Shown: in pieces, positions 2,421 through 59,010 of the stretch | Numbering within the stretch: position 1 is the stretch's first letter | Layout: each line of letters opens with the position of its first letter | Assembly: GCA_000002445.1 (NCBI GenBank) | Contig: CP000071.1 | Span: 128,001-192,000, forward strand | Length of the DNA stretch: 64,000 nt | Direction of reading: 5' to 3' | From: Trypanosoma brucei | Lineage: Eukaryota | Made by a program: the position numbers and the translations under genes | The notes under the pieces: model-generated | Database searches by the model: none | The model's input: the letters and a program-made list of their open reading frames with translations, nothing else | What the model was told of the DNA's origin: nothing

Positions 2421-2446
2421 CCCTTGCAGACACTGGAATGTTACTC

Positions 2447-3661: not shown

Positions 3662-4845
3662 CTTTTCCCTTCGGTGGGAGGGTCCGCATCCAGCGATCTC
3701 TTCATCGAGTTTCGGGAGTGTATGTGTCCAATGCGGATGGCGGAGCTCAATTTCTGTTCCAGGGTGTTGACGTTCTTCTCTCTACCAATTTTCCTGCAGA
3801 GCTCGTCAACCTTGAGACGGAAATTCCTCCAGTTAGCTTTTAGCCATGCGTACATGGGCTTTCGAAGCCGCGGGCAACTCAGTGCATCTGTGTCGTCTCC
3901 AACGATAACGTCGAAAAATATGTGATGGCGATCGCTATCGGGAGAATACAGCGATGTCCACGTGTACACTGTGCAATTCCTTGACAGTGTCACATCAGGG
4001 CTGGACTCCCCGTGGTGGCGCGCGTACCTGGTGCACTCACCAGTGTTGCAGACCAGAAACTGGTTGTCAATGCACCACTGTGTGAGGGTTTCACCCTTGG
4101 TATTTGGTGGGCTCGCGCGATCCCATGCCAACGCGTGTGCGTTAGCGTCTGCACCGATGAGCTGGGCACCGTCAGTCGTTAGAAGCGTATCTAGGTCAGT
4201 TGCCGTGAAGGTGTGTTTTGGTGGGATGTATGCCGACGTGACAGTCAGCGCCGTTCCACGTGCAAGGTGAATTATTGCATGCACTTGTTCAATGCGACCA
4301 ACAACGGCTATACCGGTCTCGACTGGTAGGTCCTCCCTCACTAGTATTGATACACCACCTCCTTTGCAGTTACGAGCTATTCCGTGATGTTGGTAGCCAG
4401 CAACGCTAAAGCAAGCCGCCTCTCCAGGCGTCATCCTTGTCTCGCTCAACAGACAAAAGGCGATCCGCTCATCAACAAGGGTTTTGTGGAGTGCTAATCT
4501 CTTTCCTTGAGATAGCCCGGTGCAGTTCCACTGCATCCCTCGCAACGACGGGCCGGGATTCTCTTCCACATCACCGGACAGCAGCATCTTAGTGCGGATG
4601 ATACTGCTGATAGCACGCTGGCACGTGCCCAGGGACCGACAAATGAAAAACGGTGTCCCGGCAAGACGCCGCTGATCCCTGTTCTGTATGATGCCGTAGC
4701 CGGAGCACAGCAGTGTTCCCCATGAAAGGAACGCTGCTGGCTCTTGGCTTCGCCCGATGATACGGGGTACTGGACCCTGGCACCACGTTGAGGTGGCCGG
4801 CATCGCCAGGGGAAACACAAGCAACCAGATCACACCAAAGAACAA
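3655..4845 (-). CDS. ingi ORF segment: N-terminal 2A-like peptide plus apurinic/apyrimidinic endonuclease (EEP) domain. It is frameshifted relative to the RT segment.
   Basis: The translation contains LLSGDVEENPGP followed by an endonuclease-like domain (LSETRMTPGE..., SPDSDRHHIFFD). The ORF overlaps the next ORF at 3655-3661 in another frame. Confidence 0.65.
   Translation of the reverse strand: MFFGVIWLLVFPLAMPATSTWCQGPVPRIIGRSQEPAAFLSWGTLLCSGYGIIQNRDQRRLAGTPFFICRSLGTCQRAISSIIRTKMLLSGDVEENPGPSLRGMQWNCTGLSQGKRLALHKTLVDERIAFCLLSETRMTPGEAACFSVAGYQHHGIARNCKGGGVSILVREDLPVETGIAVVGRIEQVHAIIHLARGTALTVTSAYIPPKHTFTATDLDTLLTTDGAQLIGADANAHALAWDRASPPNTKGETLTQWCIDNQFLVCNTGECTRYARHHGESSPDVTLSRNCTVYTWTSLYSPDSDRHHIFFDVIVGDDTDALSCPRLRKPMYAWLKANWRNFRLKVDELCRKIGREKNVNTLEQKLSSAIRIGHIHSRNSMKRSLDADPPTEGKSW
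4549..4572 (-). other. 2A-type self-processing peptide motif DVEENPGP near the N-terminus of the ingi ORF
   Basis: The reverse complement of 4549-4572 is gatgtggaagagaatcccggcccg, which translates to D-V-E-E-N-P-G-P. A 2A sequence at the start of trypanosomatid L1Tc/ingi ORFs is established knowledge. Confidence 0.75.
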
Positions 4846-7692: not shown

Positions 7693-8691
7693 TCACTCAG
7701 CGACATCAGCGAGAACCCGCCCACCGCGGCTGCGCACGAACTCCATGCGACGGGGCACAAGCACTGCGATCTCTTTACCAAAACGGAAAAAGACAGCAAC
7801 AGCGAGAAGTCCTGTGCCCATACCAATTAAGCTACCAGCAACTATATCAGCGAAGTGATGGCGGTTGTCACGTGTTCGTGAGATGGCGCAAGCACATGCG
7901 AGGTAAATTGGAGAAAGGCCAACGAGTGTTCGCCACACGGATGCTCCACTGAACGCGTGTAAAACCGAGAGGAAGTATAGGGCCATCGGTGTGCAGACGG
8001 AGAAAGCGCAACTACTGTGCCCTGAAGGAAATGAAAGCCTGCCATCCCTTGCTTTTGCAATGTCACAGAGATCTTTTGGATCTGTTCCTTCCGTAACGTT
8101 AGCCTTTTTCAATCTATCAAGAAAATCAGGACGGAGTCGGCCAGCATAAACCTTCAATATTTCCACCAAACAAACGGCCAAAATAATAGAAAATCCGTGC
8201 GCCAGAACCCAGTAATTGGTGGCTTCAAGACATGTCATAAGTCTCTTTGGATCATTCTCTTTGTTCCCTTCTGGCGATTCGTCGGGGTATCTTCCAGCCT
8301 TAGCAGCATTTGCGCCTTCAGACCTCTTCCCTTCTGGCTCCAACATCTCTACCCGCGTAGTGGCTCCGTCTATGAGTTGATCAGTTTCTTTCACATCCAA
8401 GTACCACTCACCCTTCCGAGCCAAACGCGCACGCAAGGCTTCGAACAGCAGATAAAGTCCAATAGGTATAAATTCCATGGAAAACAGTGTTCCTGAGGGG
8501 AATGTGGACTTCCCCTTCTTATGACTTATGTCCGTGTCATTCCATGAGAATGTTCGGCAAGGTGGGCGGACAGTCCTCATTCCATACACAACAGCCAGTG
8601 CAAATGTCACAAGTAGAATGTAGTCCAGCGCATGAAATACCTTTATGTAGTACACAAATTTTGCGAACCCTGTCTTACCATCATCTGCCAT
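7693..8691 (-). CDS. PAP2-family lipid phosphate phosphatase (phosphatidic-acid-phosphatase type 2), multi-pass membrane protein
   Basis: All three PAP2 signature motifs are present: KVYAGRLRPDF (KxxxxxxRP), SFPSGHSS (PSGH), SRTRDNRHHFADIVAG (SRxxxxxHxxxD). ATG verified at 8689-8691. Hydrophobic segments are present. Confidence 0.8.
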   Translation of the reverse strand: MADDGKTGFAKFVYYIKVFHALDYILLVTFALAVVYGMRTVRPPCRTFSWNDTDISHKKGKSTFPSGTLFSMEFIPIGLYLLFEALRARLARKGEWYLDVKETDQLIDGATTRVEMLEPEGKRSEGANAAKAGRYPDESPEGNKENDPKRLMTCLEATNYWVLAHGFSIILAVCLVEILKVYAGRLRPDFLDRLKKANVTEGTDPKDLCDIAKARDGRLSFPSGHSSCAFSVCTPMALYFLSVLHAFSGASVWRTLVGLSPIYLACACAISRTRDNRHHFADIVAGSLIGMGTGLLAVAVFFRFGKEIAVLVPRRMEFVRSRGGRVLADVAE

Positions 8692-10171
8692 CTTTTAACG
8701 CCTTGTTGTGCTCAATTAAGTAACGACGCTGCAAAACAGTTATCAAACAGCGGATAAAATAAAGGAGAACGGTACAAAGAATGCATGAACATATTCAAAT
8801 TCAAAAAAAAAGATTGCAACCCCTGCATGCAATACGCTTTAACTCAATATTCCGAAGCTTTTTATTGCTCTTTGTGGGATTGTCACTGGAAAGGTGTACT
8901 GTACGTATGCAACTTGATGATAATTCTATAAATCACATCATAGAATAAAAAGTCAAGCAGCATATAAATAAAACAGTGTTAAATCTAATTACAAGGCGTT
9001 TTTGGATACCTCCCGTGCATTTTCCATACTTCATAAGATCTGTAATGCATGTGTGTGAAGATATTATATATATATGCACTCCTATGCTCCCGATATGTCC
9101 AGGGACTGTGTAAATGAGGAAGAGGTATTCGCTGTTCCAGACTTCCTCCACAAGCACAGAAACCATATAATTCGCGATCACTTGTCCCTCCTATACAACA
9201 CTATCTCCTTACATCATCATTGTCATGGAGAAGAATGCTGCGCACACGGACATGCGCAACAGTTCTTTTCCACAACTAAAATACTAAAATCCCATAAAAA
9301 CAGCGAGTATACACTCATCGATACTCACACCAGCAGAGTCACACTACTAATTCCAACTGTAAATCTGTATAGTGGAGGAAGGGGCTGTCGTACAATGAAC
9401 CAAGTATCCTTAGCCCTCTTCAGCGGTCTGAACATAAACTCGGTTTTTGTGCAGCTTATCCGCATAGTGGGAAGAAAATGGTTTCCGCTTCACGCGTCCT
9501 CTGAAACACCATCTTTTCAATTATGCCAAGAACGTTACGCCTTTGTTTCAGGGTGTAGTGGGATACTTGCTTTACTATATCACTGATTAGTTTTATATTG
9601 AAAAAGAGTCTCTTGACTACTACCTTCTTTCCTGCAGCCGCCTCTGATCCAGACATTGTGCAGAGGTAATGTTGTCTAACGGAGAAGCATGAACCGTCAA
9701 TTTGAGAGTTGCTAATATCCTTTAATGGAAAAACCTACTATATTTGACCAACCATTTCAATTAAACTGTTGTGCTTAAATGTGGAAACCTGGCGCAGCGG
9801 TACGTACTTCACAGCGAGAAAAGAGTCCACATATTTGTGTTTAAGAGGAGAGAACATAGCATGTGTAGTTCAGATGCTAAACGCAAAGATACTTTAGCTC
9901 GATTTTGTTTAGCAGCAATAACATCAAAAATAAAAACAACGGATGAGCAAAAAGAGAAACGCATCTCCACGTGCAGCCTGTTAAACAGATATTTACAGCC
10001 ATCCAGAGGAAAACATTTCACCACAAATTTCAATTTTCAGCACCGCTAATAATCTGTCTAAAACAACCTCTAAAAATCAAAGATCGTAAACACAAATGAT
10101 TACCTTAATATTGTGTTGAATGACAATAAAAAATTGCTTTTCTAGACAACGATACTTCCACGCACCATCTT

Positions 10172-10845
10172 TTTAAACACTTGTAGTCCCCATAGTAGCT
10201 TCTAGCTTAATGATAGCGTACAACATAAAGAAATTCAATACATCCTTCTCCAAACATATATATATATATGTATGTGTGTGTTAATTTCCTTTAAACTTCA
10301 CTCCCCTCACTTCCTTATATACCAAACTTCCATACCTTATCTAACCCCATATGTTAAGTGTTACATTACTCCTAATTTTCAACGTTCCAGCAGTATTTCT
10401 TTCACGCTGTTCATAATTCTATAAGGCACCGCCCATCATATAGGGTAAACTATTTTTAACCTTTTAATTCTATTTTCTTACTTTGTACTATGTGTACATA
10501 GGTTATTATATGATGTATATGAAAATTGGTAAAAAGAAGCAACAGTTATATTCAATTCCGAGAACACCTCATGGTGTAAATATAAGTTTTTAAAACTAAT
10601 GATACCATTCGTTACGACACAAATATCCTCTCGAATATTACAACAATCTTATTTATACCTTTAAATTCTTAATAAATAAATAATTATATTATCGACAGTA
10701 TTTCGTGATTATTCTTTGACGAATTCTTTTGGTCCACCCATGACGTTACCGTCATACAACAATTTATTAAAAATAACATAAAATGCTTAGTAAAAAAAAG
10801 AAAATATTACCCTTATTTTCGTGTAATTTCCCATTGTTTCGCTTT
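10172..10845. repeat. Duplicated segment X, copy 1 (the 3' flank and last ~18 codons of gene A). The second copy is at 13218-13855.
   Basis: Near-identical strings in both copies: cttgta[g/a]tccccatagtagcttctagcttaatgatagcgtacaacataaagaaattcaatacatcc... through ...aaaatattacccttatttt. Confidence 0.8.
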
Positions 10846-11618
10846 AATGGACTTCGAACAACTTCATCATCATAATTTTCTTCATCATCTTCACCACTAT
10901 TACTTTCGTTTCCTTCCCCTATTGATTTTCTTCTTTGCATTCTTCCACGATATTTTCCTTTTCCCCCCTTACTACTATCCTCTTCATCCTCATCCTCATC
11001 CTCGCCCTCATCTTCTTCCTCGTCCTCCTCTTCATCCTCATCGTCTTCATCGTCTTCATCGTCTTCATCGTCGTCTTCCGTCCATAATCCTCCGTATGGT
11101 CCAACAATTTCTACACCCCGCACTCTTTGAATCTTCTCAGGGGTGAGGTAAGTGACAATACATTTTCCATGCACTGTACCCCAATGATCGTAATCTCCAA
11201 CATTTTTGGCCCATTTTTTTTCAAATTTCAACATATCCTTGGTGCATTTCGCAGCTTTGCTTCTCGTTAGTGGAAAGGTCCCATTTAGTTGACACACGGG
11301 ATTTATCCCCAAAAAATTCCAGCCTTTCATTGTTCTTCCCACAGATTCGAAGCTCGTATGATTCCATCCCTTTTTCGAATAGGCCAAAGCAATGCCACCC
11401 TCCTCACCCCCTCCGCAGTGCATCTTCCCCCACCTTATCCTCTGACCACCTCTTTCGCAATAAAACCGCATATGTCCACCTTTTTCAAATGCGGCGCACA
11501 CCTCGTCCAGTGATAATGAATTCCTATAGAGCGCATACATTTTGAGAAGTTCCCAAAAAGAGGCTTCAGCAGAGGACCCGAGAAAGCCGAGAATGAGCGC
11601 CAGTACTATGGTTTTCAT
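10767..11618 (-). CDS. Cassette gene A, copy 1: a 283-aa predicted secreted/surface acidic protein. Signal peptide MKTIVLALILGFLGSSA, Cys-containing N-domain, long D/E run, basic stretch, hydrophobic C-terminal tail (GPI-signal-like). Family unknown.
   Basis: ATG verified. The 17-aa N-terminus and ~18-aa C-terminus are identical to the ORF at 13813-14628. The internal ~240 aa are only distantly similar, though the Cys/Trp spacing is conserved. Confidence 0.6.
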   Translation of the reverse strand: MKTIVLALILGFLGSSAEASFWELLKMYALYRNSLSLDEVCAAFEKGGHMRFYCERGGQRIRWGKMHCGGGEEGGIALAYSKKGWNHTSFESVGRTMKGWNFLGINPVCQLNGTFPLTRSKAAKCTKDMLKFEKKWAKNVGDYDHWGTVHGKCIVTYLTPEKIQRVRGVEIVGPYGGLWTEDDDEDDEDDEDDEDEEEDEEEDEGEDEDEDEEDSSKGGKGKYRGRMQRRKSIGEGNESNSGEDDEENYDDEVVRSPLKRNNGKLHENKGNIFFFLLSILCYF

Positions 11619-12296
11619 ATTGATCTCCTACTGACAAACACAGAAAAAATGCCCATATATTTTACCCAATACTCACTAACGTATTCGATATACCTTCTCC
11701 CATGGTTGTAAGTAATTTTAGAAGAAAAGAAAAATAACAATTATCAAAAGGTTATATAACGCTCTTTTATTAGTTACTCCCTCTCGGCACTCATAATCCT
11801 CATCATCGGCCTCATCGCTGTTTTCACCTTTACGCCTGCATATTTTGGATTTACTCTTTTCACCTTTAACCTTTGAAACTTTAGTCTCCACAATTACCTC
11901 TTCCTTCTTTCGTTTTTCTTTTTGATATCCAAACTCTTTTACACGATTCTTTTCTTCGCATTGATTTAAATCTTCATCCTCTTCAGTTGCATCATACCTG
12001 GCAAAAGGCACATTTTCACTAGTGTTTGGCATTTGGGATTCCATAATGACGGACTTTATCTGAGTGCTTTCTTTGCTGCAGTTCCCTCCTATTCGTTTGC
12101 ATGTGCTTTCCATAGCACTTCCTGCAAGAGCCGCAAAAATGGTGGAAACAATTTGAGTGCCTACGCTTACACCTTGAGGTGGCGAGTAAACATGGTTCAA
12201 GGCTATGATGCAGTGATTCTGATTTCTTAAACGCCACACCCGCATTGGACCAGTAGCTTCTGTACGCGGGGTTGCCGCGAAATGCGCAGGCGCACA
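11571..12296. repeat. Duplicated segment Y, copy 1 (gene A signal-peptide codons, the A-B intergenic region and the 3' two-thirds of gene B). The second copy is at 14581-15297.
   Basis: agaggacccgagaaagccgagaatgagcgccagtactatggttttcatattgatctcctactgacaaacacag... is identical in both copies. Confidence 0.8.
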
Positions 12297-12662
12297 ATCG
12301 TTTATTGGTTCAACGATTATGGTTCGCCGCCTGCTCACCCGGCAGCATGGGTTGTAACCGCGACCACGAAAGGTGTCATTTACAAACTTGGCCCCGGGGT
12401 CTGAGAGGTGACGCTTCCAGTCTTCTAACGTCCATTGCGTAGGCAAAAGGTACATTCTACCGTCCTCTCCTCTAGAACACAATGTTATGTTCCACCCCTG
12501 CTCTGATTTTCGGATTTTGCTGTCAAAGTTACATGCTACAATAACACTTTCACCATCGATAAACCAAAAGGCGTGGCAATTCCTCACTCTGTTATATTCC
12601 TCACCATTACAGAGTGAGGAAAATAAAAGTATTATTAAAATAGCGCCTATCTGTTTACACAT
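11718..12662 (-). CDS. Cassette gene B, copy 1: a 314-aa predicted secreted/surface protein. Signal peptide MCKQIGAILIILLFSSLCNG, Cys-rich N-domain, E/K-rich acidic-basic region, hydrophobic C-terminal tail LLIIVIFLFF. Family unknown.
   Basis: The ORF-track start at 12671 is TTG; the first ATG is at 12660-12662. The C-terminal ~175 aa are duplicated, nearly identical, at 14728-15255. Confidence 0.55.
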   Translation of the reverse strand: MCKQIGAILIILLFSSLCNGEEYNRVRNCHAFWFIDGESVIVACNFDSKIRKSEQGWNITLCSRGEDGRMYLLPTQWTLEDWKRHLSDPGAKFVNDTFRGRGYNPCCRVSRRRTIIVEPINDCAPAHFAATPRTEATGPMRVWRLRNQNHCIIALNHVYSPPQGVSVGTQIVSTIFAALAGSAMESTCKRIGGNCSKESTQIKSVIMESQMPNTSENVPFARYDATEEDEDLNQCEEKNRVKEFGYQKEKRKKEEVIVETKVSKVKGEKSKSKICRRKGENSDEADDEDYECREGVTNKRALYNLLIIVIFLFF

Positions 12663-13217
12663 CAAGAACAATTCTGAGGGCGTAAATTTTTAGAGGCAGT
12701 GAAGCAACAGATTGTGCACCACAACGTGGTTTAGATCTTTGGTTTCTAAAGGTAGTAGTGATAGTAAAGCAAACCAACATTGTGGAGTAAAGAAAGAATG
12801 AGCTCAGAGCAAAATAGAAAATGATGTGAGGTGTAATTTATATTTTCGTGAGATAGAGGATTTTTAATTTTTTTTTGTTGGAAAAAATTCCAAAGAGAAA
12901 ACTTTTTCAAATTGTAGTTTCCACTTCCAACCCTGATTCTTCTATTTTCAAAATTAAATATATGCAGAGCGGCACAAATCACCACCTACTATTCATTACA
13001 ATCATCTACAAATGTTGTGGTAAGTTATACCAAATGTAATACCGTTTTTATAAAACATAAACACATGATAATTACGCTCCGTTGCTTTCAATTAAAATAT
13101 CGAGTAATTCTATAACAGAATAGTCAACATTAAAAAAGAACTCTATCAAATTACGAAAAATCACACAAAAGGAACAATATAACAGGAAGTACCCATCCTG
13201 AAAACGCGGCACTTTTC

Positions 13218-13855
13218 TAAACACTTGTAATCCCCATAGTAGCTTCTAGCTTAATGATAGCGTACAACATAAAGAAATTCAATACATCCTTCTCCAAACA
13301 TATATATATATATGTATGTGTGTGTTAATTTCCTTTAAACTTCACTCCCCTCACTTCCTTATATACTAAACTTCCATACCTTATCTAACCCACCATATGT
13401 TAAGTGTTACATCACTACGAATTTTCACTGTCCCAACAGTATTTCTTTCACGCTGTTCATAATTCTATAAGGCACCGCCCATCATATAGGGTAAACTATT
13501 TTTAACCTTTTAATTCTATTTTCTTACTTTGTACTATGTGTACATAGGTTATTATATGATGTATATGAAAATTGGTAAAAAGAAGCAACAGTTATATTCA
13601 ATTCCGAGAACACCTCATGTTGTAAATATAAGTTTTTAAAACTAATGATACCATTCGTTACGACACAAATATCCTCTCGAATATTACAACAATCTTATTT
13701 ATACCTTTAAATTCTTAATAAATAAATAATTATATTATCGACAGTATTTCGTGATTATTCTTTGACGAATTCTTTTGGTCCACCCATGACGTTACCGTCA
13801 TACAACAATTTATTAAAAATAACATAAAATGCTTAGTAAAAAAAAGAAAATATTA
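13218..13855. repeat. Duplicated segment X, copy 2
   Basis: See copy 1; roughly 95% identical by eye, with small indels. Confidence 0.8.
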
Positions 13856-14628
13856 CCCTTATTTTTTTGAGGACTTGCGGTACCTTGTTTTACCAGGTTT
13901 TGAAAATCTTCATTATCATTCGCATATTCATCATCGGCATCAGCACCATGTTTGTCATCTATTCCTTCTTCGTGTGCATTCTCACTACTCAATATCGTTT
14001 TTCGTTTTTTTGCGGTTCTTTTTCTCTTTTTGTGTCGCCTTTTTTTTTCAACTTCAAGTTCTCTAGTCATATTCTCTTCTTCATTCCTGCTCTCTTCTGG
14101 CTCGTCGTCCTCGTTAACTTCCACTGCTTCTCCTTCAGTTGAAAGAATGTCAAGAGGACGAGTGGTGATAATGCACTTCCCTTTCGCAGGATCCCAGCTC
14201 TTGTACCTATTACCATTTTTTACCCTTCGCTCCATCTTTTTTAGCGACTCGTTTGTGCATTGGGTGACCGGAACCTTAGGTAATTCAACTTCGTCATCAA
14301 TGGTGCACTCTGGATTCACTCCCAAATAAATCCAGTCATCCATATCTTGTTCCAGCAATATGTGCTTCTCGTAAGACTTCCACTCGTTTGAATAGGAAGC
14401 AAAAACATTCCCCTTTTCGTCGACACCGCAACTCATTACCTTCCAAATCGGCAACTCATTCCCCCTATGGCAAAACATCTGCATACCCCTGTCATCTGCA
14501 AACGCGGAGCACAACCGTTTGGGTGTCCCGAGGTCATCGTAAAACAAGTGCTTAATTTTATCCCATTCCTCTTTATCCGCAGAGGACCCGAGAAAGCCGA
14601 GAATGAGCGCCAGTACTATGGTTTTCAT
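13813..14628 (-). CDS. Cassette gene A, copy 2: a 271-aa paralogue of gene A with the same signal peptide and C-terminal tail but a strongly diverged mature region
   Basis: ATG verified. MKTIVLALILGFLGSSA... and ...KNKGNIFFFLLSILCYF are shared with copy 1. The core aligns only by pattern (C-AF...F-C-RG...W...CG...E-G...YS...W...LG-NP-C). Confidence 0.6.
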   Translation of the reverse strand: MKTIVLALILGFLGSSADKEEWDKIKHLFYDDLGTPKRLCSAFADDRGMQMFCHRGNELPIWKVMSCGVDEKGNVFASYSNEWKSYEKHILLEQDMDDWIYLGVNPECTIDDEVELPKVPVTQCTNESLKKMERRVKNGNRYKSWDPAKGKCIITTRPLDILSTEGEAVEVNEDDEPEESRNEEENMTRELEVEKKRRHKKRKRTAKKRKTILSSENAHEEGIDDKHGADADDEYANDNEDFQNLVKQGTASPQKNKGNIFFFLLSILCYF

Positions 14629-15297
14629 ATTGATCTCCTACTGACAAACACAGAAAAAATGCCCATATATTTTACCCAATACTCACTAACGTATTCGATA
14701 TACCTTCTCCCATGGTTGTAAGTAATTTTAGAAGAAAAGAAAAATAACAATTATCAAAAGGTTATATAACGCTCTTTTATTAGTTACTCCCTCTCGGCAC
14801 TCATAATACTCATCATCGGCCTCATCGCTGTTTTCACCTTTACGCCTGCATATTTTGGATTTACTCTTTTCACCTTTAACCTTTGAAACTTTAGTCTCCA
14901 CAATTACCTCTTCCTTCTTTCGTTTTTCTTTTTGATATCCAAACTCTTTTACACGATTCTTTTCTTCGCATTGATTTAAATCTTCATCCTCTTCAGTTGC
15001 ATCATACCTGGCAAAAGGCACATTTTCACTAGTGTTTGGCATTTGGGATTCCATAATGACGGACTTTATCTGAGTGCTTTCTTTGCTGCAGTTCCCTCCT
15101 ATTCGTTTGCATGTGCTTTCCATAGCACTTCCTGCAAGAGCCGCAAAAATGGTGGAAACAATTTGAGTGCCTACGCTTACACCTTGAGGTGGCGAGTAAA
15201 CATGGTTCAAGGCTATGATGCAGTGATTCTGATTTCTTAAACGCCACACCCGCATTGGACCAGTAGCTTCTGTACGCGGGGTTGCCGCGAAATGCGT
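14581..15297. repeat. Duplicated segment Y, copy 2
   Basis: See copy 1. Confidence 0.8.
14728..15297 (-). pseudogene. Cassette gene B, copy 2: a 5'-truncated copy retaining only the C-terminal ~175 codons
   Basis: It is nearly identical to 11718-12296. Sequence similarity ends at ~15297. The upstream B reading frame hits TGA immediately, and no signal-peptide region is present. Confidence 0.7.
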
Positions 15298-18200
15298 AAT
15301 TGGGCTCCGACGTCAGCCCGGGACTGAACATTCTTGCTGCCACCAGGCAAATGGCATTTGCCTTTTATGTGGAAGCGCCCATACTGTCAGTGCTTTCGCT
15401 TCTCTACCATACGTTCTTTCCTTTGAAATTCCAGTGTTTCGTTTGTGCTTCAACTGTACTCTAAATGAAAATATAGTACCTATAGGGTGTTAGTCATATA
15501 ATTATGTTAAAGTACTATATTATATTTTTTACATGACAACGGTGAAGTGTTCAACATGTTTATGTCCAACGAGAGTCGCCGATGACGACGAGTACGCCAG
15601 ATGGCTGCGAGGCCCATATTGGGTCGAAAACCAAGATCTTGAGGGTGCTGTGGGTCGCATTAGCAGGTTGTTATTATTATCGCTTGCTCTCGTCTGGCAG
15701 TCGGTTACGGAAGATAATTTAGCCCTAACGGTGTCATATAATAATCTTACCAATTCAATGAGCTACGCTACTCCACTCTCTACACTCCTGCGCCTGTGTT
15801 TGGTTTTTGTGTCAACTTTAGATGGAAATGCTTTAGTGAAGCGGTCTATCATCCGCTTCTCAGTTTTAACTGTGGAGAGTTTTCCTTATCAAGCACCACA
15901 CGATCACGACTCCGGTATGTTTACTAACTTTCATCCCCTTTTGTTAATATTTATTTTTTGCAACCACCATGTGGCAAAGTGGATATGAGCTGCTCCTGTC
16001 TCCATCATTTCGCCATTGCGCCCTGTAATCACCCTTTCTAAATGTTGAATCACTTCTCGAGGACTCCTCGAAAAAAAAAAACCCTGACCATCACCATTCC
16101 CTCTCACTAACTCCCCTTCAAACTCTTATACATAGAGCGTGTAGCTGCACAAGACGGTGTTACACGTATTCGTCCGCCACGCGCAAGGAGAGCCTGCATC
16201 TCAACACTTTCAACCGTCAGCATTATCAGCTGTTTGACCACGGGCATCCCATGAAAATGCTTTCAAACTTCATGCAGGACGAACCAATCTCGGTGGAGCT
16301 GTAGTCGCTATGCACTTATGATTATACAAATGCACCCCTCGTTGTATTTCCAGTTGGCTTCCAAAACACACGAAAAAAAGGAGAGTGAATATGAAATATT
16401 CGAATCCATCACCGACGCATGAGCATTTGTAGTTGGAGCAGGCGCCAATGTCAACGATTCCTCCACAAGTATATAAAGATATATTATTTCACTCACCGGA
16501 AGTATTCATAGAAAGCAAGAAAAAGCATTAAGAGACCACACCTCAGGAGTCTTCACGCTGGAAAGGCTACTCCGCACATTCTTTACGGGCGCAATTGGCA
16601 CGTTCATGACCTTTTACCGCCCACCACCGAGAGGGGCATGTGGCTCCCAGGCGGTATTGTAGAAAAAAAATGCGGCGACAGCATCGAGTTAAAAACAAAC
16701 ATAACACACGTCCATACAAAACAGGGACACAGAAAGTAATTGTCCCTGCACCCTTTCTCAAATGAGAGAGATCTTCATTGGCTGTCAGAAAGAAAAAAAA
16801 AACATCACTGCTTAGTAAGAGGCATCATTTTGAAGAAAGCTCATAATTCAACAAATTCGTTCTTACAATAAAAACGACTGAAATAACAGTTTCTACAAGA
16901 TGTAGGCAGCCGTACACTAGCGTGATGATATGAAGCATGGTATTCGCTCAGGCTTCCGATCTATGAGGAAGTAGAAAAATAGCGGCAAACGCTTGATGTA
17001 GATAATTATTCACAAGGTCCGAAAATAGTATAGGATTCTCTCAGGTAATATCGAATGAACTCATACTCCAATTTGAGCCACAGGAAACACTTGTGCCAAA
17101 CACGTTTCTGCAAACCATCAACCTTTATTCAAGAGGCGGTGGGCACATTTATACCAACGGAAAGCGCGCTGCCTGTAGGCGAAAATATGAAATTCCCGCA
17201 ACAAGCCATGAGATGCACCAACAACGTCTTACACAGGAGGCGAATGTGTTATGCAATACGCTATTGAAGAAGGGTTTTCACGGCCGCTAGCGGAGGGAAT
17301 GCCACCGAACGGCTTCAGGATGACAATAATTCTTGGGATCAACCGTGATCATCTACAGGGAGCGTGGGGAGTTAAATTGGGGCTGGCGACTGAGCCAAGT
17401 GGTGACCATCGTTTTATCGGGTCCGGAGCAAACCATATTGGAGTACTTACCGATAAGTCTTCGTGCACACGCTAAAGAAACAGGTGCAAACCTGCCGGTG
17501 CGGCGAGAATTGGGCGAACGAAACCGTGCGATTGTCAGCAACAATAACCCCGTCATAAAGGAGGCAATTCCGAAGAGGATGAATGGGCTGGTGTCAAATT
17601 TTGGAAGCGAAAATTATGGAGTACACGCGGGGAAATAAAGCGGTATGAAAACGGAAAGGGCGCTGATCAAACTGGAGATGGAAAAAAAAACCTGGGTAAC
17701 GCGCAGGTCTCAAATCCTTTGGGCCAACCACTCGGTCCAATAAAGGAGCAGGAGGTACATGCAAAGAACGAGGGTTATAGCTATCAAAAATGAGGGAACA
17801 GGAATGATATCGGCCTCAAGGAACTGAACGGGCAAAGAATGATCATGCGCTCTGCCTGACAGTGGTGAAAGCGCATATTTAGCTTTTTTTTTTTGCAGAG
17901 GGGGATGCAGTTGTCAGACGCGCTGAGTTCGAGCTAGCAAGAGAAGAAAAAATAAGGCAAAGCGCCGTGAGCAACAGCGCGCATCCCAAAGAATGAGAGT
18001 TGTTCCGACGTATTTAATGAGTTGTAGCTTAACCCAGGAAGTGAGAGAGCGGACCGCAAAGCAGACGACCGGCGTACAGGACACATGAAAAAGATTAACG
18101 AGAGGCAGAAGTAGCGGGGGGAGGGAATTTAGAAGGAACACCTGACACGGGGCCGACTGCCAAGTTCAGACGGGTCCATCACGCTGGACGCGCTTTCGTG

Positions 18201-20157
18201 AGGAGTGTCATCGAACCCAAAAGCGGAAGAGGTCATGACAGAGCTGGAAAGATATTCCGCAGCCATGGCAGAGCGCATTGTGATGGAAAACGGAGCTAAT
18301 AAAACGAACTAAAATAACAAACATGAACATAGCAAAAAAAAAAAGAGGAACGATCCGGTTATCCGGTCAGTATCCAGTGCGATACACGCGTGAGTCAGGC
18401 AGCGGTTGTGCACACGATAAAAGCGCACAAACGGAGGAGCAAGTGAGTGCCATCAGCAACAAAGCTTGGGGAATGAAGTAAAGCTACGAGAGGAATCCCG
18501 GTGTGACGACTGTGTGAAAATCTTTGATTGAAGTTAGCCGTTGTGGTGATTAAAAAAAAACACACACACACAAAACATTCCCATAAAGATAACCGAAGGA
18601 GAAAAAAGTCAGAAAAGCACCAAGGAGGAATTACCGAGAAAGGGCTCCGACGCCCGCACTGGTTGAAAAAGTACGAAAAATACGTATAACAAAAAAACAA
18701 AAGGCAACGAAAAAAAAAAAAACCGTCCAAGTATACAGAGCGTCGAAGAAAAGAGTAAAATGGTTTGAAAAAAAAAAAGAAAACAGAAGGTAGAGAATAC
18801 AAACGCCCGAGAGTCAATGGTATAAAAGGGAACCAGAGAGTAAAACATGGGTAACGGAGCACAACTACAAACCGAAAGTTGGTGGAGAAAGAAGGGAAAA
18901 TCAGAAGGTTATGTTAGACACAGAACCATGTCCAACATGTAGCAAAATATGCCACCACAAGTGGATCCCGAACTGCGTATAACAAAGGATACCTGGCACA
19001 CAACGGCACTCCTTTTTTTACCTTAGAAAAAAAAGGAAAGAAAAAGTGGGGATGGACGGAAAAGGAGGTACAGGGGAGACAAGATATTTTTTAAAAAAAG
19101 CAAAAAAAAAAAGAGATCACGGACATAGAAGATGTACCCGCGCCTCAAGACGGTAGCTGCTGGAGTTCCACTTCCAGGGAGCATCACGAAAACACAAATG
19201 TTTCCCAAGGCAAAAAAAACGAAGAGTGACACAAATTAGCAGGATTTACTTCTCTAACCTCAAAGGCTCATCTCAATGTTCCCCTTTCTTCGCTCAACAA
19301 AACACGCCACTAAGCAATACCTGGCAATTCACCTTTAGGTAAGATAGAGGCGACAGCCCCATAAGGTAGTCAAAAAAAAGGGTTGGGGATGTTGTCTCGG
19401 AAGTGAGTTCCGCACTTGTTTGAGAGACTTACTATTAAGGATGCGAAGGCAAGAGTACAAAGCAGACAAGTTCAAGGAAAAAGAGAAGCAATGTAAATGT
19501 GTGGTTGGCATCTTTTCTCAGGGAGTTGTCCAAAGTGCAATACTCCACGACCCCGATACAAAAAAAAAAAAGCAAAGTTGAAACCTACAAAATCGAAGGA
19601 AGAAGACCACACCCACCTTAAAGAATCCGCAAAACTCTACCGCAAAACAAGGCAAATGAAGTGTACAAAAGCAAAGGTTGATGCAACGGCAAGGTGCAAA
19701 CTCTCAAAACACCAGACGCTTATTCAGCATTTGGCGTATCTAAATGGAAAGCGGTAGGGAACCCCGATCGGCTTCCCATCGTGATCAGCAGTCCATTTAG
19801 GAGTCGGTGCCGCGGGAATGGAGTACCATAAGCTTACTGTCACATTCCCCTCCCTTTCCCCCCCAAAAAAAAATAATAATCCGGTACCATAACTTAATTC
19901 CCATCTGTTGTCCCCGCCTTTTGTGCGCATGCGCAGTTCAACACCAATACACGCAGCAACCACCTCTTCGACTTAGGGGTCCAACATCAGGGAACCTCAC
20001 TTACCATTTGCACTAAAAAAGGAGAAAAAATGAGCGAAATAAACATAGCCACTCCTCCAGGGCCGTGAGCGGGTAGTGACAACCAATGGGTAGCACTGCT
20101 TTACGCACTTAAATCGAGTCAAATCATGCCGACCCAAAATATGGAACTGCCAACGTT

Positions 20158-20185
20158 AAAATAATAATAATAATAATAATAATAG
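20158..20185. repeat. (AAT)9 microsatellite
   Basis: Read directly; a second (AAT)7 tract is at ~61790-61811. Confidence 0.85.
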
Positions 20186-20506
20186 GACAAGCCCATAGAT
20201 AAACAGTCAATGAGTAACTGTAGATGGAAGAAAACAAAAGTAAAAAAAACAGCACATCTGTGAATGGGCTAAACCCAATGTATGCTGGTGTAAAGTGGCT
20301 CTTACAATGTTATGGGGTCAGGGGTGGGGGTCCTAGTAGTATAAATTCATGTTCATCTTCGTCCGCTGTTACGAAACAAATGCGGACATCCATCACACAA
20401 TTATACAGCCTTGCTCTTTTTTTTTACCTAATGTTTTGGGAGACTTTCGCATTCTGGTGCCTACAACTTTCATAATATCGTATAGTAAAATGGCGTTTTA
20501 CACTAT

Positions 20507-21635
20507 TCAGTTATGCTTCCGCATTGGGAAACGCAGATCCTCCAACTTCAGTAGATTTTGTAATCCGTTCAAATTATTTAGGTTCATACAGTCAAATATG
20601 TCCAATTTTTTTTTGAAATTACAAAGAATCTTTATGGCATCGATATTTTTAAGACCTACACATCCCGAGAGATCCGGTCTTTCTAAACTCCTTAAATAAC
20701 GTAGTTCACTAATATTGTTCAATTTGGTACATCCGGATAGGTAAAGCGTTTTCAACCCAACAACTTTTTGAAGCCCATCCAGATCCTTTAGATCCGTACA
20801 ATGGTTTAGGTAAAGCTCTTTCCAATTTCGGACATCCCCGCAGAAACTTCGCGCCACCCACCGACGCACAACCGTTGAGATTTGTTGCTTTTACTTCATT
20901 TTTTTTTTTTCGATGCACAACTCACTTACGTTCCTCAGATTGTCACGATCTGATAAACTCAACGCATCCAAATTACGCGCATCCGCGAGACCACGCACTT
21001 CGCGACGACTTGGGCACCCTTTGACTACGAAGGACTTCAATCCGACGCAGTCACTCACATTGATCTCCGTTAAAGTTTCGCACCGCTCCACATGGAGAGC
21101 AACAAAATTATCTGCACGGCACAAATTCGCGTTTTTTTTAAAGGTCGCGTACACTTTTAGTTTGAGAACTCCATCCGTTTCAGAACCGATGAAGAACTCT
21201 ATATTTTGTGTTGTATCGTGAAACCCACGAATTGAGTACATGTCCACACCATCCCCAACTATTTGGTGTCATGCCGCGGCCGCAACCTGCTCTGTGGCTG
21301 CATTTCCCCGCGAGCGGAAGAATTGTTTGATTAGGCGTCGTCGCCTCATGGTTGGGACGTTTCGTCATCTCCCTTTCGGTTCTGGCACCATTCTCAGTTT
21401 GCTTCCGCCTGACCGGCAGTTCCACTTCACCAGGTTCAGTTTTGTTCTTATTCTGTGGCGCATCTGCTGCTTCCATCCGCGGATCCCTCTGGTTTTCCCC
21501 CACCTCCGTTGTTTTGATTGTGAGTCTCCTTTTTTTCCCCCTTGAAAATGAGATGATCTTGCCGTTCACAAATGCAGAGTAGCCCACCAGCATTATCATT
21601 AACAGACATTCTCCTACTACTGATGATGTTTCCAT
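20507..21635 (-). pseudogene. Leucine-rich-repeat protein (ESAG8/LRRP-like) pseudogene, broken into three overlapping reading frames
   Basis: LRR units of the ESAG8 type (LxxLxLSGCxxLxNIxxL, e.g. LKTLYLSGCTKLNNISELRYLRSLERPDLSGCVGLKNIDAI; LTEINVSDCVGLKSFVVKGC) appear in ORFs 20507-20869 and 20891-21247. A third frame covers 21180-21635. Confidence 0.6.
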
Positions 21636-23119
21636 GGCCCTCTCAACACTTCCGTGGTAAAATTTATTTATTTATTTCCTGCATAATGAGCAACCCTGAA
21701 ATGAGAATAACTGGTCATGCGAGAATAAGTATTTACAGTCCTCTTACTCCAAACCGACCTGCGACTGCGGCAAATACCCCTCTTACGCGTTCATCTCGAA
21801 GCAGCTGCCAGCCGCTAACCGGCAACCATCAAACTTTCAATCATTTCTCAACTACTCTAACTATACACACACGCAAAAAAAAAAAGAACTCAGAAAAAGT
21901 GGGACACAAGTAAACACAGAGGGTCACATACGTTTATTACCATTCCACTTCTTATTTTTCTCCACACCTGCACGACTACTACTAACCCGTAACCTTAAAC
22001 AAAGGATAGACATATACTTTACTGCCAACGCGAAAAAAAAAAATGTTCGTGGGGAAGACACCAGTTTACACATTACCTCTTAAGGATTTGCACCGTGTTA
22101 TTGCAGCAAAATCTGGGCTTCCACGACGAGCGTGGCTTGAAAAGGTGAAGAAGCGAAAATTCGTAAGCACCCCCCCCGCAGCACAACATAAAAACATCAC
22201 AACATAAACGAAATCCCTGGAACGCACTCGTTGAACGTGTGCCCACACGCAACTCTTTTCGCCAAACTTCATCACAACAGCAAGTGGAACATCAAGAAAA
22301 GGTACCCAAAAACTTTCCCCCGCCTGCTGCATAATCGGGTCGAAAAGTTCAGCAGCACAAATGAAGCCGGTGCAGCTTTTTTTTCTTCCACCGGAATCCT
22401 GAACCATGCCATCTCAAGGATGCAATAACGCCGGTGGCAACCTTTCGGCACCGTGCATTACCTCGCCGGATCACCGCCGCAGCGCGGCCCCGTAACCCTA
22501 AATGAAACAAAAAAATGAAATCCACCGTAGGCGACACCGTAGGCACTGGCATTACTGCATTAAAGAAAACGTTCTACCTGAGTCGTTCTGGGATGGAAAA
22601 CAAATCGGCGCTCTCTTCAAAATAGCTTCGTGACTGTTAGCATAGGCAAATTATTCCAAGATCCCTTCAATATTCTAGTTTCTTCAACGAGTGCATTACA
22701 GCAAGGAAACAAAAGCAAACACGTGCTCGCAAAAAATGTGTGAAAAACAAAATTACAGAACCACACGAACTTTATTTTTTCATTCACCTCATCGATGTTT
22801 TTTCTTCACTTAAAACTCCTGAAACGATCGTCAATGTAATGAGGCACTTGCAACACGATCCAAAGTGGATGAATTCCCAACCAACAGGTTCATTCCCCCC
22901 ACGCCTCGTCACAGACTATGAAATACCTCACACACGCAGCGATTATCGTTATATTCCATTTCTTTCCCTTAACCCAACTAAAGCGGATGTTGACCACAGC
23001 AGAATGCGCAAGTGGAGCTACGGGCCAGACGAACGATCTACAGAAATTTGATAGTGCGTTCCCTTCCTGATGTTTTTACGGACCCTCACAGGTAGTTTCC
23101 ATAGCATAATAACGTGTGC

Positions 23120-23147
23120 GGGGTTAGGGTTAGGGTTAGGGTTAGGC
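23120..23147 (+). repeat. Interstitial telomere-type repeat (TTAGGG)4.5
   Basis: ggggttagggttagggttagggttagg read directly; the G-rich strand is the plus strand. Confidence 0.9.
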
Positions 23148-23634
23148 CAGCACCACAGCATTCGATAAGACAAAACAACAAGTCACAAAAATAGGATCAC
23201 ACCGGACATACGTGCCTGTCGCTGCTTTAAAATAAGGATGCAAAAAGCAACGAGCGCATTTGACATTGGCAATAAAAGGGAAAATGAGTGGGCAACAACA
23301 CCAAAGGATTTACCCTCCGCTCCTCCATCACCCACTGCAAGTGAAAATAACCATAGAAACAATAGTTTCGACCTTCACGCAGTGCGGGGAGCAAGTTGGC
23401 TCCCTTCAGATGCAAGAGATGAGAATTGTGTGATCCTTCCAAACCTTGCCTTTTCTATCTGCGGTATATTTGTCAAAGCGCCTAACCTTCAATGTCACTC
23501 AGAGAAAAGAAAAAAATAAGACAACATGTCATCTCACATCACCTTTGTCCTCCAAGTGAAGATGAAACATTGCCACTCACGAACTAGTGTGCGGGGTAGA
23601 ACAATTTTGAGACGCGACTGTCTCTGGCGCACCT

Positions 23635-43213: not shown

Positions 43214-43216
<3 letters not shown>

Positions 43217-43244
<28 letters not shown>
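43217..43244. repeat. (TA)14 microsatellite
   Basis: Read directly in the intergenic region. Confidence 0.9.

Positions 43245-58976: not shown

Positions 58977-58978
<2 letters not shown>

Positions 58979-59010
<32 letters not shown>
58979..59010. repeat. (TA)16 microsatellite
   Basis: Read directly in the intergenic region. Confidence 0.9.

What the first reader, a model, noticed from the sequence alone, without database searches (positions are those of the whole stretch)
10172..15297. Tandemly duplicated two-gene cassette with near-identical flanks and a hypervariable core (possible contingency/surface-protein locus)
Two ~3-kb units each carry gene B then gene A on the minus strand. Segments X (10172-10845 vs 13218-13855) and Y (11571-12296 vs 14581-15297) are nearly identical between the units. 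Those shared parts include the 17-codon signal peptide of gene A, its last ~18 codons plus 3' flank, the A-B intergenic region and the 3' two-thirds of gene B. Yet the ~725-bp segment between X and Y, which encodes the mature core of protein A, has diverged so far that the two A proteins align only by Cys/Trp spacing, while keeping the same length. Identical flanks around a divergent core are what homogenising gene conversion of the flanks and/or diversifying selection on an exposed domain would produce; it is not what simple duplication followed by drift would give. Both A and B have signal peptides, acidic low-complexity regions and hydrophobic C-termini, so they would be secreted or GPI-anchored if genuine. 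The second B copy is 5'-truncated exactly at the repeat boundary, which points to unequal crossing-over.
Basis: seen in the sequence. Interest (0 to 1): 0.75.

Follow-up and report, generated by a model that had tools for sequence, protein, structure and literature searches.

The report
Trypanosome gene pair: identical flanks, old core
This is the annotated Trypanosoma brucei chromosome 8 locus Tb927.8.490-.520, where two ancient copies of a small secretory-protein gene have had their targeting signals, untranslated regions and neighbouring gene recently made identical, most likely by gene conversion, while the mature-protein part stayed very different; it is a tidy but ordinary case of concerted evolution.

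Summary
Segment X (10169-10819 vs 13212-13865) is 98.0% identical. Segment Y (11566-12286 vs 14576-15296) is 99.7% identical. They flank a 746/710-bp core with 46% nucleotide identity, and the edges are razor-sharp. The genes are Tb927.8.490 (A1), .500 (B1), .510 (A2) and .520 (B2 fragment), which are Trypanozoon-only orphans. Carnes et al. 2015 already called them a segmental duplication followed by diversification.

Synonymous sites in the core are saturated (dS about 1.4, dN/dS about 0.5), against 0.3-2% divergence in the flanks. Fast diversifying selection after a recent duplication is therefore rejected. The cores are old paralogues that keep six Cys. The flanks share recent ancestry. X1 and X2 resemble each other more than either resembles X of a single-unit strain (Fisher p = 7e-4). 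Some variants are shared by paralogues within a haplotype.

Best reading: gene conversion homogenises the flanks, so both A isoforms share targeting signals and UTRs. The same repeats plausibly account for the copy-number polymorphism. B2's truncation is a non-homologous junction with a fragment of an unrelated conserved gene, not simple unequal crossing-over. A contingency-locus reading is not supported. A GPI anchor remains untested. Interest is modest.

The parts
10169..10819 (.). Repeat segment X, copy 1. It holds the last 16-17 codons of A1 (10767-10819) plus about 600 bp of its 3' flank or UTR.
   Evidence: 98.0% identical to 13212-13865, with sharp edges.
13212..13865 (.). Repeat segment X, copy 2. 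It holds the last 16-17 codons of A2 plus about 600 bp of its 3' flank or UTR.
   Evidence: X1 = X2 at 39 columns (25 substitutions and one 14-bp indel) where the single-unit strain contig L001 differs.
10820..11565 (-). Divergent core of A1: the mature-protein coding part, codons 18 to about 267.
   Evidence: 46% nucleotide identity and 26% amino-acid identity to the A2 core; dS about 1.4, dN about 0.71.
13866..14575 (-). Divergent core of A2: the mature-protein coding part.
   Evidence: It is 2.3% diverged from the orthologous core in L001.
11566..12286 (.). Repeat segment Y, copy 1. It holds the A1 signal-peptide codons 1-17, the 99-bp B-A intergenic region with a polypyrimidine tract and AG, and the 3' 569 nt of B1.
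   Evidence: 99.7% identical to 14576-15296 (2 differences).
14576..15296 (.). Repeat segment Y, copy 2. It holds the A2 signal-peptide codons, the intergenic region and the B2 fragment.
   Evidence: It is 0.6% diverged from strain contig L002.
10767..11618 (-). Gene A1 = Tb927.8.490, 283 aa. Signal peptide, six-Cys domain, acidic then basic low-complexity linker, hydrophobic C-terminus.
   Evidence: It is 95% identical to the BAC allele Q57WN2 (P0001). PMC4288722 and PMC8259959 refer to this gene by its ID.
13813..14628 (-). Gene A2 = Tb927.8.510, 271 aa.
   Evidence: identical to P0002 (XP_846889, Tb927.8.510).
11718..12662 (-). Gene B1 = Tb927.8.500, 314 aa, full length. It is a remote paralogue of A with the same architecture.
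   Evidence: 100% to P0003; five Cys, a Trp and the GxNPxC motif align with A; hhalign E = 8e-5.
14728..15255 (-). B2 fragment = Tb927.8.520, 175 aa from an internal Met. It lacks the signal peptide and four of the five family Cys.
   Evidence: there is an in-frame stop 20 codons upstream of the Met. The protein (P0007) is identical in T. b. gambiense DAL972 and T. equiperdum.
12287..13211 (.). Unique spacer U: the 5' third of B1 (12287-12662) plus its upstream region. It has no counterpart after Y2 or before X1.
   Evidence: no residual homology to the left flank of X1 or to the sequence right of Y2.
15297..15308 (+). A 12-nt remnant (TAATTGGGCTCC) of an unrelated conserved kinetoplastid gene, at the non-homologous junction that truncates B2.
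   Evidence: In strain contig L002 the same junction continues into codons about 42-110 (VSWAPHTTEKKQGAFAKL...) of a 110-aa protein that is 89% identical to the T. cruzi one.
10966..11082 (-). In-frame acidic (Asp/Glu) codon repeat inside the A1 core. Its length differs between alleles.
   Evidence: family D3, 9/12-nt spacing; the BAC allele has a 2-aa deletion and several D/E swaps here.

Best explanation
The region is the Trypanosoma brucei chromosome 8 cluster Tb927.8.490/.500/.510/.520. It consists of two 'B-then-A' cassettes of a Trypanozoon-restricted orphan family. The proteins are small and built the same way: signal peptide, a roughly 150-aa six-Cys domain, a highly charged low-complexity linker and a hydrophobic C-terminal tail.

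A1 and A2 are old paralogues, because synonymous sites in the core are saturated. Everything around the mature-protein coding core has recently been made identical between the two units by inter-unit gene conversion or unequal exchange, that is, concerted evolution. The homogenised parts are the signal-peptide codons, the last 16 codons (a candidate GPI signal), the B-A intergenic splice region, about 600 bp of 3'UTR and the adjoining 3' part of B. The conversion tracts stop where the cores are too divergent to pair, or where conversion is selected against.

Inferred consequence: two different mature proteins are delivered by the same targeting signals and controlled by the same UTRs. This fits the reported co-induction of .490 and .510.

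The 0.65-0.72-kb direct repeats are also substrates for non-allelic homologous recombination. That is the most economical explanation for the single-unit haplotypes (A2 plus the B2 fragment) in T. b. gambiense, T. evansi and contig L001.

Shown: the repeat anatomy, the old core, the young flanks, the within-genome versus between-strain similarity, and the copy-number polymorphism. Inferred: gene conversion as the process, deletion rather than gain as the polarity, and the regulatory consequence.
For: (1) Sharp mosaic: X is 98.0% and Y 99.7% identical, the core 46%.

(2) Core dS is 1.41 (Nei-Gojobori with Jukes-Cantor correction) and dN is 0.71. Only 38 of the 67 conserved residues use the same codon. 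Flank divergence is 0.003-0.02, a gap of 70-fold or more in apparent age.

(3) The cores are true homologues under structural constraint: E = 7e-23, with six Cys, several Trp and the GxNPxC motif aligned.

(4) Concerted-evolution signature in X. X1 and X2 agree with each other and differ from the X of single-unit contig L001 at 25 substitutions and a 14-bp indel. X1 vs X2 shows 10 substitutions in 651 bp; X1 vs L001 shows 31 in 637 (p = 7e-4).

(5) X is not conserved by constraint. Between strains it is the most diverged segment: 4.5-4.9%, against 1.9% in the unique left flank (p = 0.004) and 2.3% in the A2 core. A 3'UTR that has mixed two formerly different copies would look like this.

(6) Variants shared by paralogues within a haplotype. 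B1 and B2 both read DEADDE in the window and both read DEVDDE in BAC Tb08.27P2. A1 and A2 share signal-peptide residues L8 and F12 in both two-unit haplotypes, whereas gambiense A2 has I8 and L12.

(7) Y2 is 99.7% identical to Y1 although B2 is a signal-less fragment, so coding constraint cannot explain the identity.

(8) Single-unit haplotype: in L001 the A2 core and X run straight into the left flank of X1. Tb927.8.490 and .500 are absent from T. evansi STIB805 and not annotated in DAL972 (PMC4288722).

(9) No third A-like sequence exists among 5.8 billion clustered proteins or 1.84 billion representatives.

(10) Co-regulation.490 and .510 rise about 3- and 6-fold on TfR knock-down (PMC8259959). 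.480 and .510 rise on CTR9 or ZC3H20 RNAi. .480 and .520 rise during bloodstream-to-procyclic differentiation.
Against: Only two to three haplotypes could be compared, and one of them only as proteins.

The within-haplotype shared variants are few: one site in B and two in the signal peptide.

Without an outgroup, deletion versus gain of unit 1 cannot be polarised.

At the 13 sites that distinguish X1 from X2, L001 alternates between the two states with at least five switches. A single non-allelic recombination event would give one switch. Either the differences arose after homogenisation or the history is more complex.

A duplication younger than the strain split would also give X1 = X2 differing from L001. 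That alternative is disfavoured only by the lack of any donor for the A1 core and by the excess between-strain divergence of X.

The exact coincidence of the tract ends with the predicted signal-peptide cleavage site and the candidate GPI omega site is not predicted by neutral conversion. It hints at selection or at cassette-like exchange.
Confidence: 0.62

Rival explanations
1. Captured allelic dimorphism. A1 and A2 cores were two very old alternative alleles of one locus, kept by balancing selection while recombination kept their flanks alike. One allele carried full-length B and the other the truncated B. An unequal exchange between homologues then placed them in tandem.
For: Single-unit haplotypes carrying A2 plus the truncated B exist (DAL972 proteins). 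They have exactly the structure of the right-hand unit. An exchange between an 'A1 + full B' chromosome and an 'A2 + truncated B' chromosome would give the observed 1.68-copy layout in one step. Flank divergence between units (0.3-2%) lies within the range of allelic divergence at this locus (0.6-4.9%).
Against: No 'A1-only' haplotype is known. A dS of about 1.4 between alleles would need an extraordinarily old trans-specific polymorphism in a family found only in Trypanozoon. The within-haplotype shared variants still require conversion after the capture.
Confidence: 0.12
2. Recent tandem duplication followed by cassette replacement. The unit duplicated recently, which made the flanks identical. 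The core of one copy was then overwritten by gene conversion from a third, divergent family member, using the conserved signal-peptide and C-terminal codons as homology anchors, as in VSG 3'-end conversion.
For: The flanks are younger than the strain split. The tract ends fall exactly at the signal-peptide and C-terminal signal codons. These codons are the only sequences that distant family members might share.
Against: No third A-type gene or fragment was found in any searched database, which included TREU927, DAL972, T. equiperdum and Logan assemblies, or in the window itself. X diverges more between strains than its neighbours do, and a simple young duplicate does not predict that. The homology anchors would be only about 50 bp long.
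Confidence: 0.1
3. Recent duplication followed by very rapid diversifying (positive) selection on the exposed mature domain.
For: The mature domain is the only part that differs. Alleles of A1 and A2 differ by 1.5-5% at the protein level, which looks high; no genome-wide figure was measured here for comparison.
Against: Synonymous sites in the core are saturated (dS about 1.4) while the flanks differ by 0.3-2%. Selection on amino acids cannot saturate silent sites. Core dN/dS is about 0.5. A2 between strains has dN/dS 0.56, with 14 non-synonymous and 6 synonymous changes, not significantly different from 1.
Confidence: 0.03
4. Assembly artefact: collapse or chimeric joining of two alleles or loci.
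For: Near-identical 0.7-kb repeats are hard to assemble from short reads.
Against: The same four genes occur in the same order on an independent BAC (Tb08.27P2.60-.90) with allelic differences. Published read-depth and contig mapping support the duplication, and orthologues are annotated in Lister 427 (PMC4288722). Unique sequence (U and both cores) links the repeats unambiguously.
Confidence: 0.01

Closest known systems
Tb927.8.490/.500/.510/.520 of T. brucei TREU927 (annotated 'T. brucei spp.-specific' hypothetical proteins)
   Same: It is this locus. B1, A2 and B2 are 100% identical to Tb927.8.500.510 and .520. The neighbouring PAP2 gene is Tb927.8.480. Carnes et al. [quoted passage not shown] They also report that the pair is absent from T. 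evansi STIB805.
   Different: In the papers I could search, nobody describes the sharp mosaic, the saturated core next to young flanks, the concerted-evolution signature, the remote A-B homology, or the non-homologous junction that truncates .520.
T. cruzi MASP and TcMUC surface gene families (conserved signal-peptide and GPI-signal ends with a hypervariable mature centre)
   Same: The layout is the same: the N-terminal signal and C-terminal signal coding regions are highly conserved, and the mature central domain is strikingly different (PMC2691823, PMC5636173). Recombination or conversion among flanks is invoked there too.
   Different: There is no sequence homology. This family has two A members and one and a half B members, not hundreds. 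The cores here are folded Cys domains that still align, not mosaics of short motifs. There is no evidence of mammalian-stage surface display or immune selection.
Concerted evolution of tandem surface-gene duplicates in African trypanosomes (for example Fam50/BARP, cysteine peptidase B, ESAG families)
   Same: Recombination among tandem duplicates overwrites orthology, so that copies cluster by genome. This is described as a general feature in the cell-surface phylome paper (PMC3605285).
   Different: In those families whole genes are homogenised. Here homogenisation is restricted to the flanks and spares the mature-protein core. Tb927.8.490-.520 did not appear in the one supplementary file of that paper that could be searched.

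Membership tests
Tb927.8.490/.510 'A' and Tb927.8.500/.520 'B' orphan genes of T. brucei | Near-identity of the encoded proteins to the annotated TREU927 genes, and the same gene order next to PAP2 (Tb927.8.480) | tested here: met
   A2 = XP_846889 (100%), B1 = XP_846888 (100%), B2 = AAZ12824 (100%). A1 is 95% identical to BAC allele AAX69987. PAP2 domain at 7693-8691.
Concerted evolution by inter-paralogue gene conversion | Paralogous segments within a genome are more similar to each other than to their orthologue in another strain | tested here: met
   X1-X2 10 substitutions in 651 bp, against X1-L001 31 in 637 (p = 7e-4). There are 25 substitutions plus a 14-bp indel where X1 = X2 and L001 differs.
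Concerted evolution by inter-paralogue gene conversion | Abrupt tract boundaries between homogenised and non-homogenised sequence | tested here: met
   identity switches from 100% to about 50% within 1-3 nt at both core edges.
Concerted evolution by inter-paralogue gene conversion | Polymorphisms shared by paralogues within a haplotype but differing between haplotypes | tested here: met
   the Ala/Val site in B1 and B2, and signal-peptide residues L8/F12 against I8/L12. Only three sites, at protein level.
Concerted evolution by inter-paralogue gene conversion | Copies cluster by genome rather than by position across many strains | not testable with these tools
   No Trypanozoon genome collection is searchable here. 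Only two short Logan contigs and one set of BAC proteins were available.
GPI-anchored or secreted surface protein | Cleavable N-terminal signal peptide | tested here: inconclusive
   a hydrophobic h-region (mean Kyte-Doolittle 1.7-1.8) and small residues at -3 and -1 (S-S-A) in A1 and A2, with B1 similar. This is a heuristic only; no SignalP was available. PMC8259959 reports predicted signal sequences.
GPI-anchored or secreted surface protein | C-terminal GPI signal: omega site, spacer and hydrophobic tail | tested here: inconclusive
   N-K-G-N followed by 12 hydrophobic residues at the extreme C-terminus. The omega/omega+2 rule is satisfiable (N..G), but the spacer is very short. No predictor was available.
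GPI-anchored or secreted surface protein | Experimental localisation at the cell surface | not testable with these tools
   PMC8259959 cites TrypTag for 'secretory pathway compartments', which is not a surface location.
Contingency (phase-variable) locus | A hypermutable simple-sequence repeat that switches the reading frame or the promoter on and off | tested here: not met
   the only repeat is an in-frame 9/12-nt acidic codon repeat, and the allelic length change is 2 codons. A single A7/A8 homopolymer frameshift in L001 may be a sequencing error.
Variant surface glycoprotein (UniProt's name for Q57WN2) | VSG N- or C-terminal domain detectable by profile | tested here: not met
   no Pfam family reaches its threshold for A1, A2, B1 or B2. 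At 283 aa the protein is far shorter than a VSG.
T. cruzi MASP/TcMUC-type families | Sequence homology of the conserved N- and C-terminal regions, and a large multicopy family | tested here: not met
   the only true homologues are the T. brucei A and B genes themselves. The resemblance is one of layout only.

The most novel reading that the evidence does not exclude
The identical signal-peptide codons, C-terminal signal codons and UTRs may form a fixed 'chassis' that is actively maintained. The two alternative mature domains could then be exchanged or recombined between units, and lost or regained between strains. That would make this a miniature two-cassette isoform-switching system for a stage-induced or stress-induced secretory protein (bloodstream-to-procyclic differentiation, iron starvation). 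On this reading the exact match between the tract ends and the processing sites reflects selection, not chance.
Probability: 0.06. Interest if true: 0.6.

Novelty: new member of a known kind. Interest (0 to 1): 0.3.

Why it matters
The locus shows cleanly how conversion can keep regulatory and targeting sequences of paralogues identical while their functional domains stay far apart.

In trypanosomes, mRNA levels are set largely by UTRs. That predicts strict co-regulation of two different proteins, and it explains why RNA-seq reads on .500/.520 and on the .490/.510 UTRs cannot be assigned to one copy.

It also gives a concrete mechanism, repeat-mediated deletion, for a known presence/absence polymorphism among T. 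brucei subspecies.

It corrects two tempting readings: positive selection on the core, and unequal crossing-over as the cause of the truncated gene. It does not reveal a new kind of system.

Tried and rejected
(1) Structure prediction. AlphaFold2 on full-length A1 with a 5-sequence alignment gave pLDDT 34. On the mature N-domain with A1, A2 and B1 it gave pLDDT 37. Both models are unusable, so no fold search was run.

(2) Remote homologues. A profile of the A1, A2 and B1 N-domains was searched against 1.84 billion representatives. It returned only the three T. brucei clusters and three bacterial tandem-Ig adhesins (P0011-13). The adhesins have no Cys, and their scores come from several repeated weak matches per protein (5-6 matched stretches listed). 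I judged them spurious.

(3) Pfam scan of A1, A2, B1 and B2: nothing above threshold.

(4) The look-up of encoding contigs with A1, P0001, P0002 and P0003: nothing on record. Only the two Logan fragments gave DNA.

(5) Residual homology outside the repeat. Left flank of X1 vs the sequence left of X2: z = -0.3. B1 5' part vs the sequence right of Y2: z = 2.9, but the alignment is a 44-bp low-quality match and tblastn found nothing. Rejected.

(6) L002's 621-bp non-matching part as a RIME/ingi insertion. Rejected: it has no similarity to the window's ingi-like element, and it encodes part of a conserved kinetoplastid protein.

(7) Cell-surface phylome membership. The gene IDs were not found in the one supplementary file held.

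(8) tRNA and Rfam scans of the window: nothing.

Full report
**1. What is there**

All long ORFs in the window lie on the minus strand. In the region of the finding the ORFs are:
- 7693-8691: a PAP2-domain phosphatase (Pfam E = 4e-28).
- 10767-11618: A1, 283 aa.
- 11718-12662: B1, 314 aa from its ATG.
- 13813-14628: A2, 271 aa.
- 14728-15255: B2, 175 aa.

Database searches identify these as Trypanosoma brucei TREU927 chromosome 8 genes. B1 is 100% identical to Tb927.8.500, A2 to Tb927.8.510 and B2 to Tb927.8.520. A1 is 95% identical to the allele on BAC Tb08.27P2 (Q57WN2), and the literature calls it Tb927.8.490.

The only homologues among 5.8 billion clustered proteins are these T. brucei group sequences.

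**2. Checking the observation**

Self-BLAST finds two long direct repeats and nothing else of note in the 64 kb.
- X: 10169-10819 vs 13212-13865, 98.0% identical.
- Y: 11566-12286 vs 14576-15296, 99.7% identical.

Between them, the cores (746 and 710 bp) are 46% identical, against 34 +/- 3.6% for shuffled sequence. Identity switches within 1-3 nt at each edge.

X holds the last 16 codons of A (NKGNIFFFLLSILCYF) and about 600 bp downstream. Y holds A's first 17 codons (MKTIVLALILGFLGSSA), the 99-bp B-A spacer and the 3' 569 nt of B.

The arrangement is not an assembly artefact. An independent BAC carries the four genes as distinct alleles. Carnes et al. 2015 confirmed the region by read mapping.

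**3. Age of the core against age of the flanks**

A codon alignment gives Nei-Gojobori dS = 1.41 and dN = 0.71 for the core. Only 38 of the 67 conserved residues keep the same codon.

The flanks differ by 0.3% (Y) and 1.5-2% (X). Silent sites cannot be saturated by selection on amino acids. The core is therefore much older than the flanks, and 'rapid diversifying selection after a recent duplication' is rejected.

The cores remain homologous. BLASTP on the cores alone gives E = 7e-23, with six Cys, several Trp and a GxNPxC motif aligned. This indicates a shared fold under constraint.

Between strains, A2 has 14 non-synonymous and 6 synonymous changes (dN/dS 0.56, not significantly different from 1). 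That indicates relaxed constraint at most, not demonstrable positive selection.

**4. Evidence that the flanks are being homogenised**

Two Logan contigs from other isolates gave DNA.

L001 carries a gambiense-like A2, then X, then runs directly into the unique sequence left of X1. It is a single-unit haplotype.

Within X there are 25 substitutions and one 14-bp indel where X1 = X2 but L001 differs. X1 and X2 differ from each other at only 13 columns. X1-X2 divergence is significantly lower than X1-L001 divergence (p = 7e-4).

X is not conserved by constraint. Between strains it is the most diverged segment: 4.5-4.9%, against 1.9% for the unique left flank (p = 0.004) and 2.3% for the A2 core. 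This excess is expected if today's X copies are a blend of two formerly different 3'UTRs.

At the protein level some variants follow the haplotype rather than the gene copy.
- B1 and B2 both read DEADDE in the window and both read DEVDDE on the BAC haplotype.
- A1 and A2 share L8 and F12 in both two-unit haplotypes, while gambiense A2 has I8 and L12.

Y2 stays 99.7% identical to Y1 although B2 is a fragment. It has an in-frame stop 20 codons upstream of its Met, no signal peptide, and only one of the five family Cys.

Together these are the classical marks of concerted evolution by gene conversion or unequal exchange.

**5. Copy-number polymorphism**

Tb927.8.490 and .500 are absent from T. 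evansi STIB805 and not annotated in T. b. gambiense DAL972, but are present in Lister 427 (PMC4288722). L001 shows the single-unit junction directly.

Recombination between X1 and X2 would delete exactly the A1 core, Y1 and U. This is the most economical origin.

One caveat remains. L001 alternates between X1-like and X2-like states at the 13 diagnostic sites. A single clean crossover is therefore not visible, and the polarity (loss versus gain) is not proven.

**6. The truncated B2**

There is no homology beyond Y2 to the 5' part of B1.

Contig L002 matches Y2 and 12 nt beyond it (to 15308). It then continues into sequence absent from the window. That sequence encodes residues about 42-110 (VSWAPHTTEKKQGAFAKLARSNFGDP...) of a 110-aa protein conserved across kinetoplastids. 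It is 89% identical to T. cruzi, with matches as distant as Neobodo.

The window retains only TAATTGGGCTCC of that gene at 15297-15308.

The Y2 edge is therefore a non-homologous junction with a fragment of an unrelated gene. In TREU927 a further rearrangement followed. A simple unequal crossover between identical chromatids would have left a second copy of U, and that copy is not there.

**7. What the proteins look like**

A1, A2 and B1 share an architecture:
- a hydrophobic N-terminus with S-S-A or L-C-N-G before the mature part;
- a Cys domain of about 150 aa;
- a charged low-complexity linker (46 Asp/Glu in A1);
- 12-13 hydrophobic residues at the very C-terminus, preceded by N-K.

A and B are probably remote paralogues. 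BLASTP of A2 against B1 gives E = 0.004. hhalign gives E = 8e-5 with probability 61%. Five Cys, a Trp, E-x-G and GxNPxC align.

A GPI anchor is plausible, but the spacer is very short and I could not run a predictor. Tiengwe et al. cite TrypTag for a secretory-pathway location.

There is no Pfam family and no VSG domain, despite UniProt's name for Q57WN2. Both AlphaFold attempts failed.

**8. Expression context, from the literature**

- Tb927.8.480 is the last ORF of a polymerase II transcription unit, and .510 lies 6 kb from the stop region. Both rise on CTR9 RNAi (PMC3332058) and on ZC3H20 RNAi (PMC3121479).
- .480.490 and .510 rise 3-7-fold when iron uptake is blocked, together with procyclins and PAGs (PMC8259959).
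- .480 and .520 are among the genes strongly induced during bloodstream-to-procyclic differentiation (PMC10269879).

The shared X (3'UTR) and the shared splice region give a simple reason for the parallel behaviour of the two A genes. This last step is inference.

**9. Comparison with what is known, and verdict**

The locus and its duplication are annotated and briefly noted in the literature.

The layout, with identical signal and anchor-signal ends and UTRs around a very different mature domain, is the one known from T. cruzi MASP and TcMUC families (PMC2691823, PMC5636173). Concerted evolution of tandem surface genes is described as common in African trypanosomes (PMC3605285). There is no homology to those families.

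What is added here:
- the sharp mosaic, quantified;
- the demonstration that the core is old and the flanks are young;
- the within-genome versus between-strain test;
- the A-B relationship;
- the nature of the B2 junction.

This is a well-behaved example of a known evolutionary process in a small orphan family, and its interest is modest.

Noticed in passing
L002:1-621 and window 15297-15308: In another isolate (Logan ERR7929162) the right edge of Y2 is fused to the 3' two-thirds of a 110-aa protein gene conserved across kinetoplastids (89% identical to T. cruzi C3747_2g774c). No T. brucei, T. congolense or Leishmania protein was among the hits, so the gene may be unannotated there. The window keeps only 12 nt of it.
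   Followed up: partly
window 300-4845 (-): Three consecutive minus-strand ORFs encode an endonuclease (Exo_endo_phos), a reverse transcriptase (RVT_1, E = 5e-42), and RNase H with a C2H2 finger. This is an ingi-like non-LTR retroelement with a broken frame, just downstream of the PAP2 gene at the end of the transcription unit.
   Followed up: partly
window 15300-23600: About 8 kb with no ORF of 200 aa or more, between the B2 fragment and a 2451-aa ORF at 23635-30990. It contains leucine-rich-repeat ORF fragments at 20507-21247 (-) (LRR_4, E = 6e-7) that look like a decayed LRR-protein pseudogene.
   Followed up: partly
window 11619-11717 and 14629-14727: Only 99 bp separate the B stop codon from the A start codon. 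The polypyrimidine tract and AG that would serve A lie in this spacer and in B's last, T-rich codons. B therefore has almost no room for its own 3'UTR and poly(A) site. It may be expressed only as a longer or bicistronic RNA, or poorly.
   Followed up: no
window 10367-10390 vs 13413-13436: Seven of the 13 X1/X2 differences fall in one 24-bp patch. The outside strain L001 matches X1 for the first three and X2 for the next four, which is a small mosaic.
   Followed up: partly
L001:620-640 (A2 codon ~206): The A2 gene of isolate ERR7929157 has an A8 run where the window has A7. This shifts the frame and gives a 214-aa product. It is either a real inactivation or a homopolymer error.
   Followed up: no
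window 7693-8691 (-): In four independent published perturbations (CTR9 RNAi, ZC3H20 RNAi, TfR RNAi, bromodomain inhibition) the PAP2 phosphatase gene Tb927.8.480 is reported as up-regulated alongside at least one A/B gene (.510, .490 + .510, or .520). It shares no repeat with them. The co-regulation may come from its position at the end of the transcription unit rather than from shared UTRs.
   Followed up: no
window 9586-15308 vs L001/L002: Between-strain divergence is very uneven across the locus: 1.9% in the left flank, 4.5-4.9% in X, 2.3% in the A2 core and 0.6% in Y. The B2 fragment protein is identical in TREU927, DAL972 and T. equiperdum, while A2 differs at 12 of 271 residues between TREU927 and DAL972.
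   Followed up: partly
window 43212-43244 and 58975-59007: The only other repeat found in the whole-window self-comparison is a pair of (AT)n microsatellites.
   Followed up: yes
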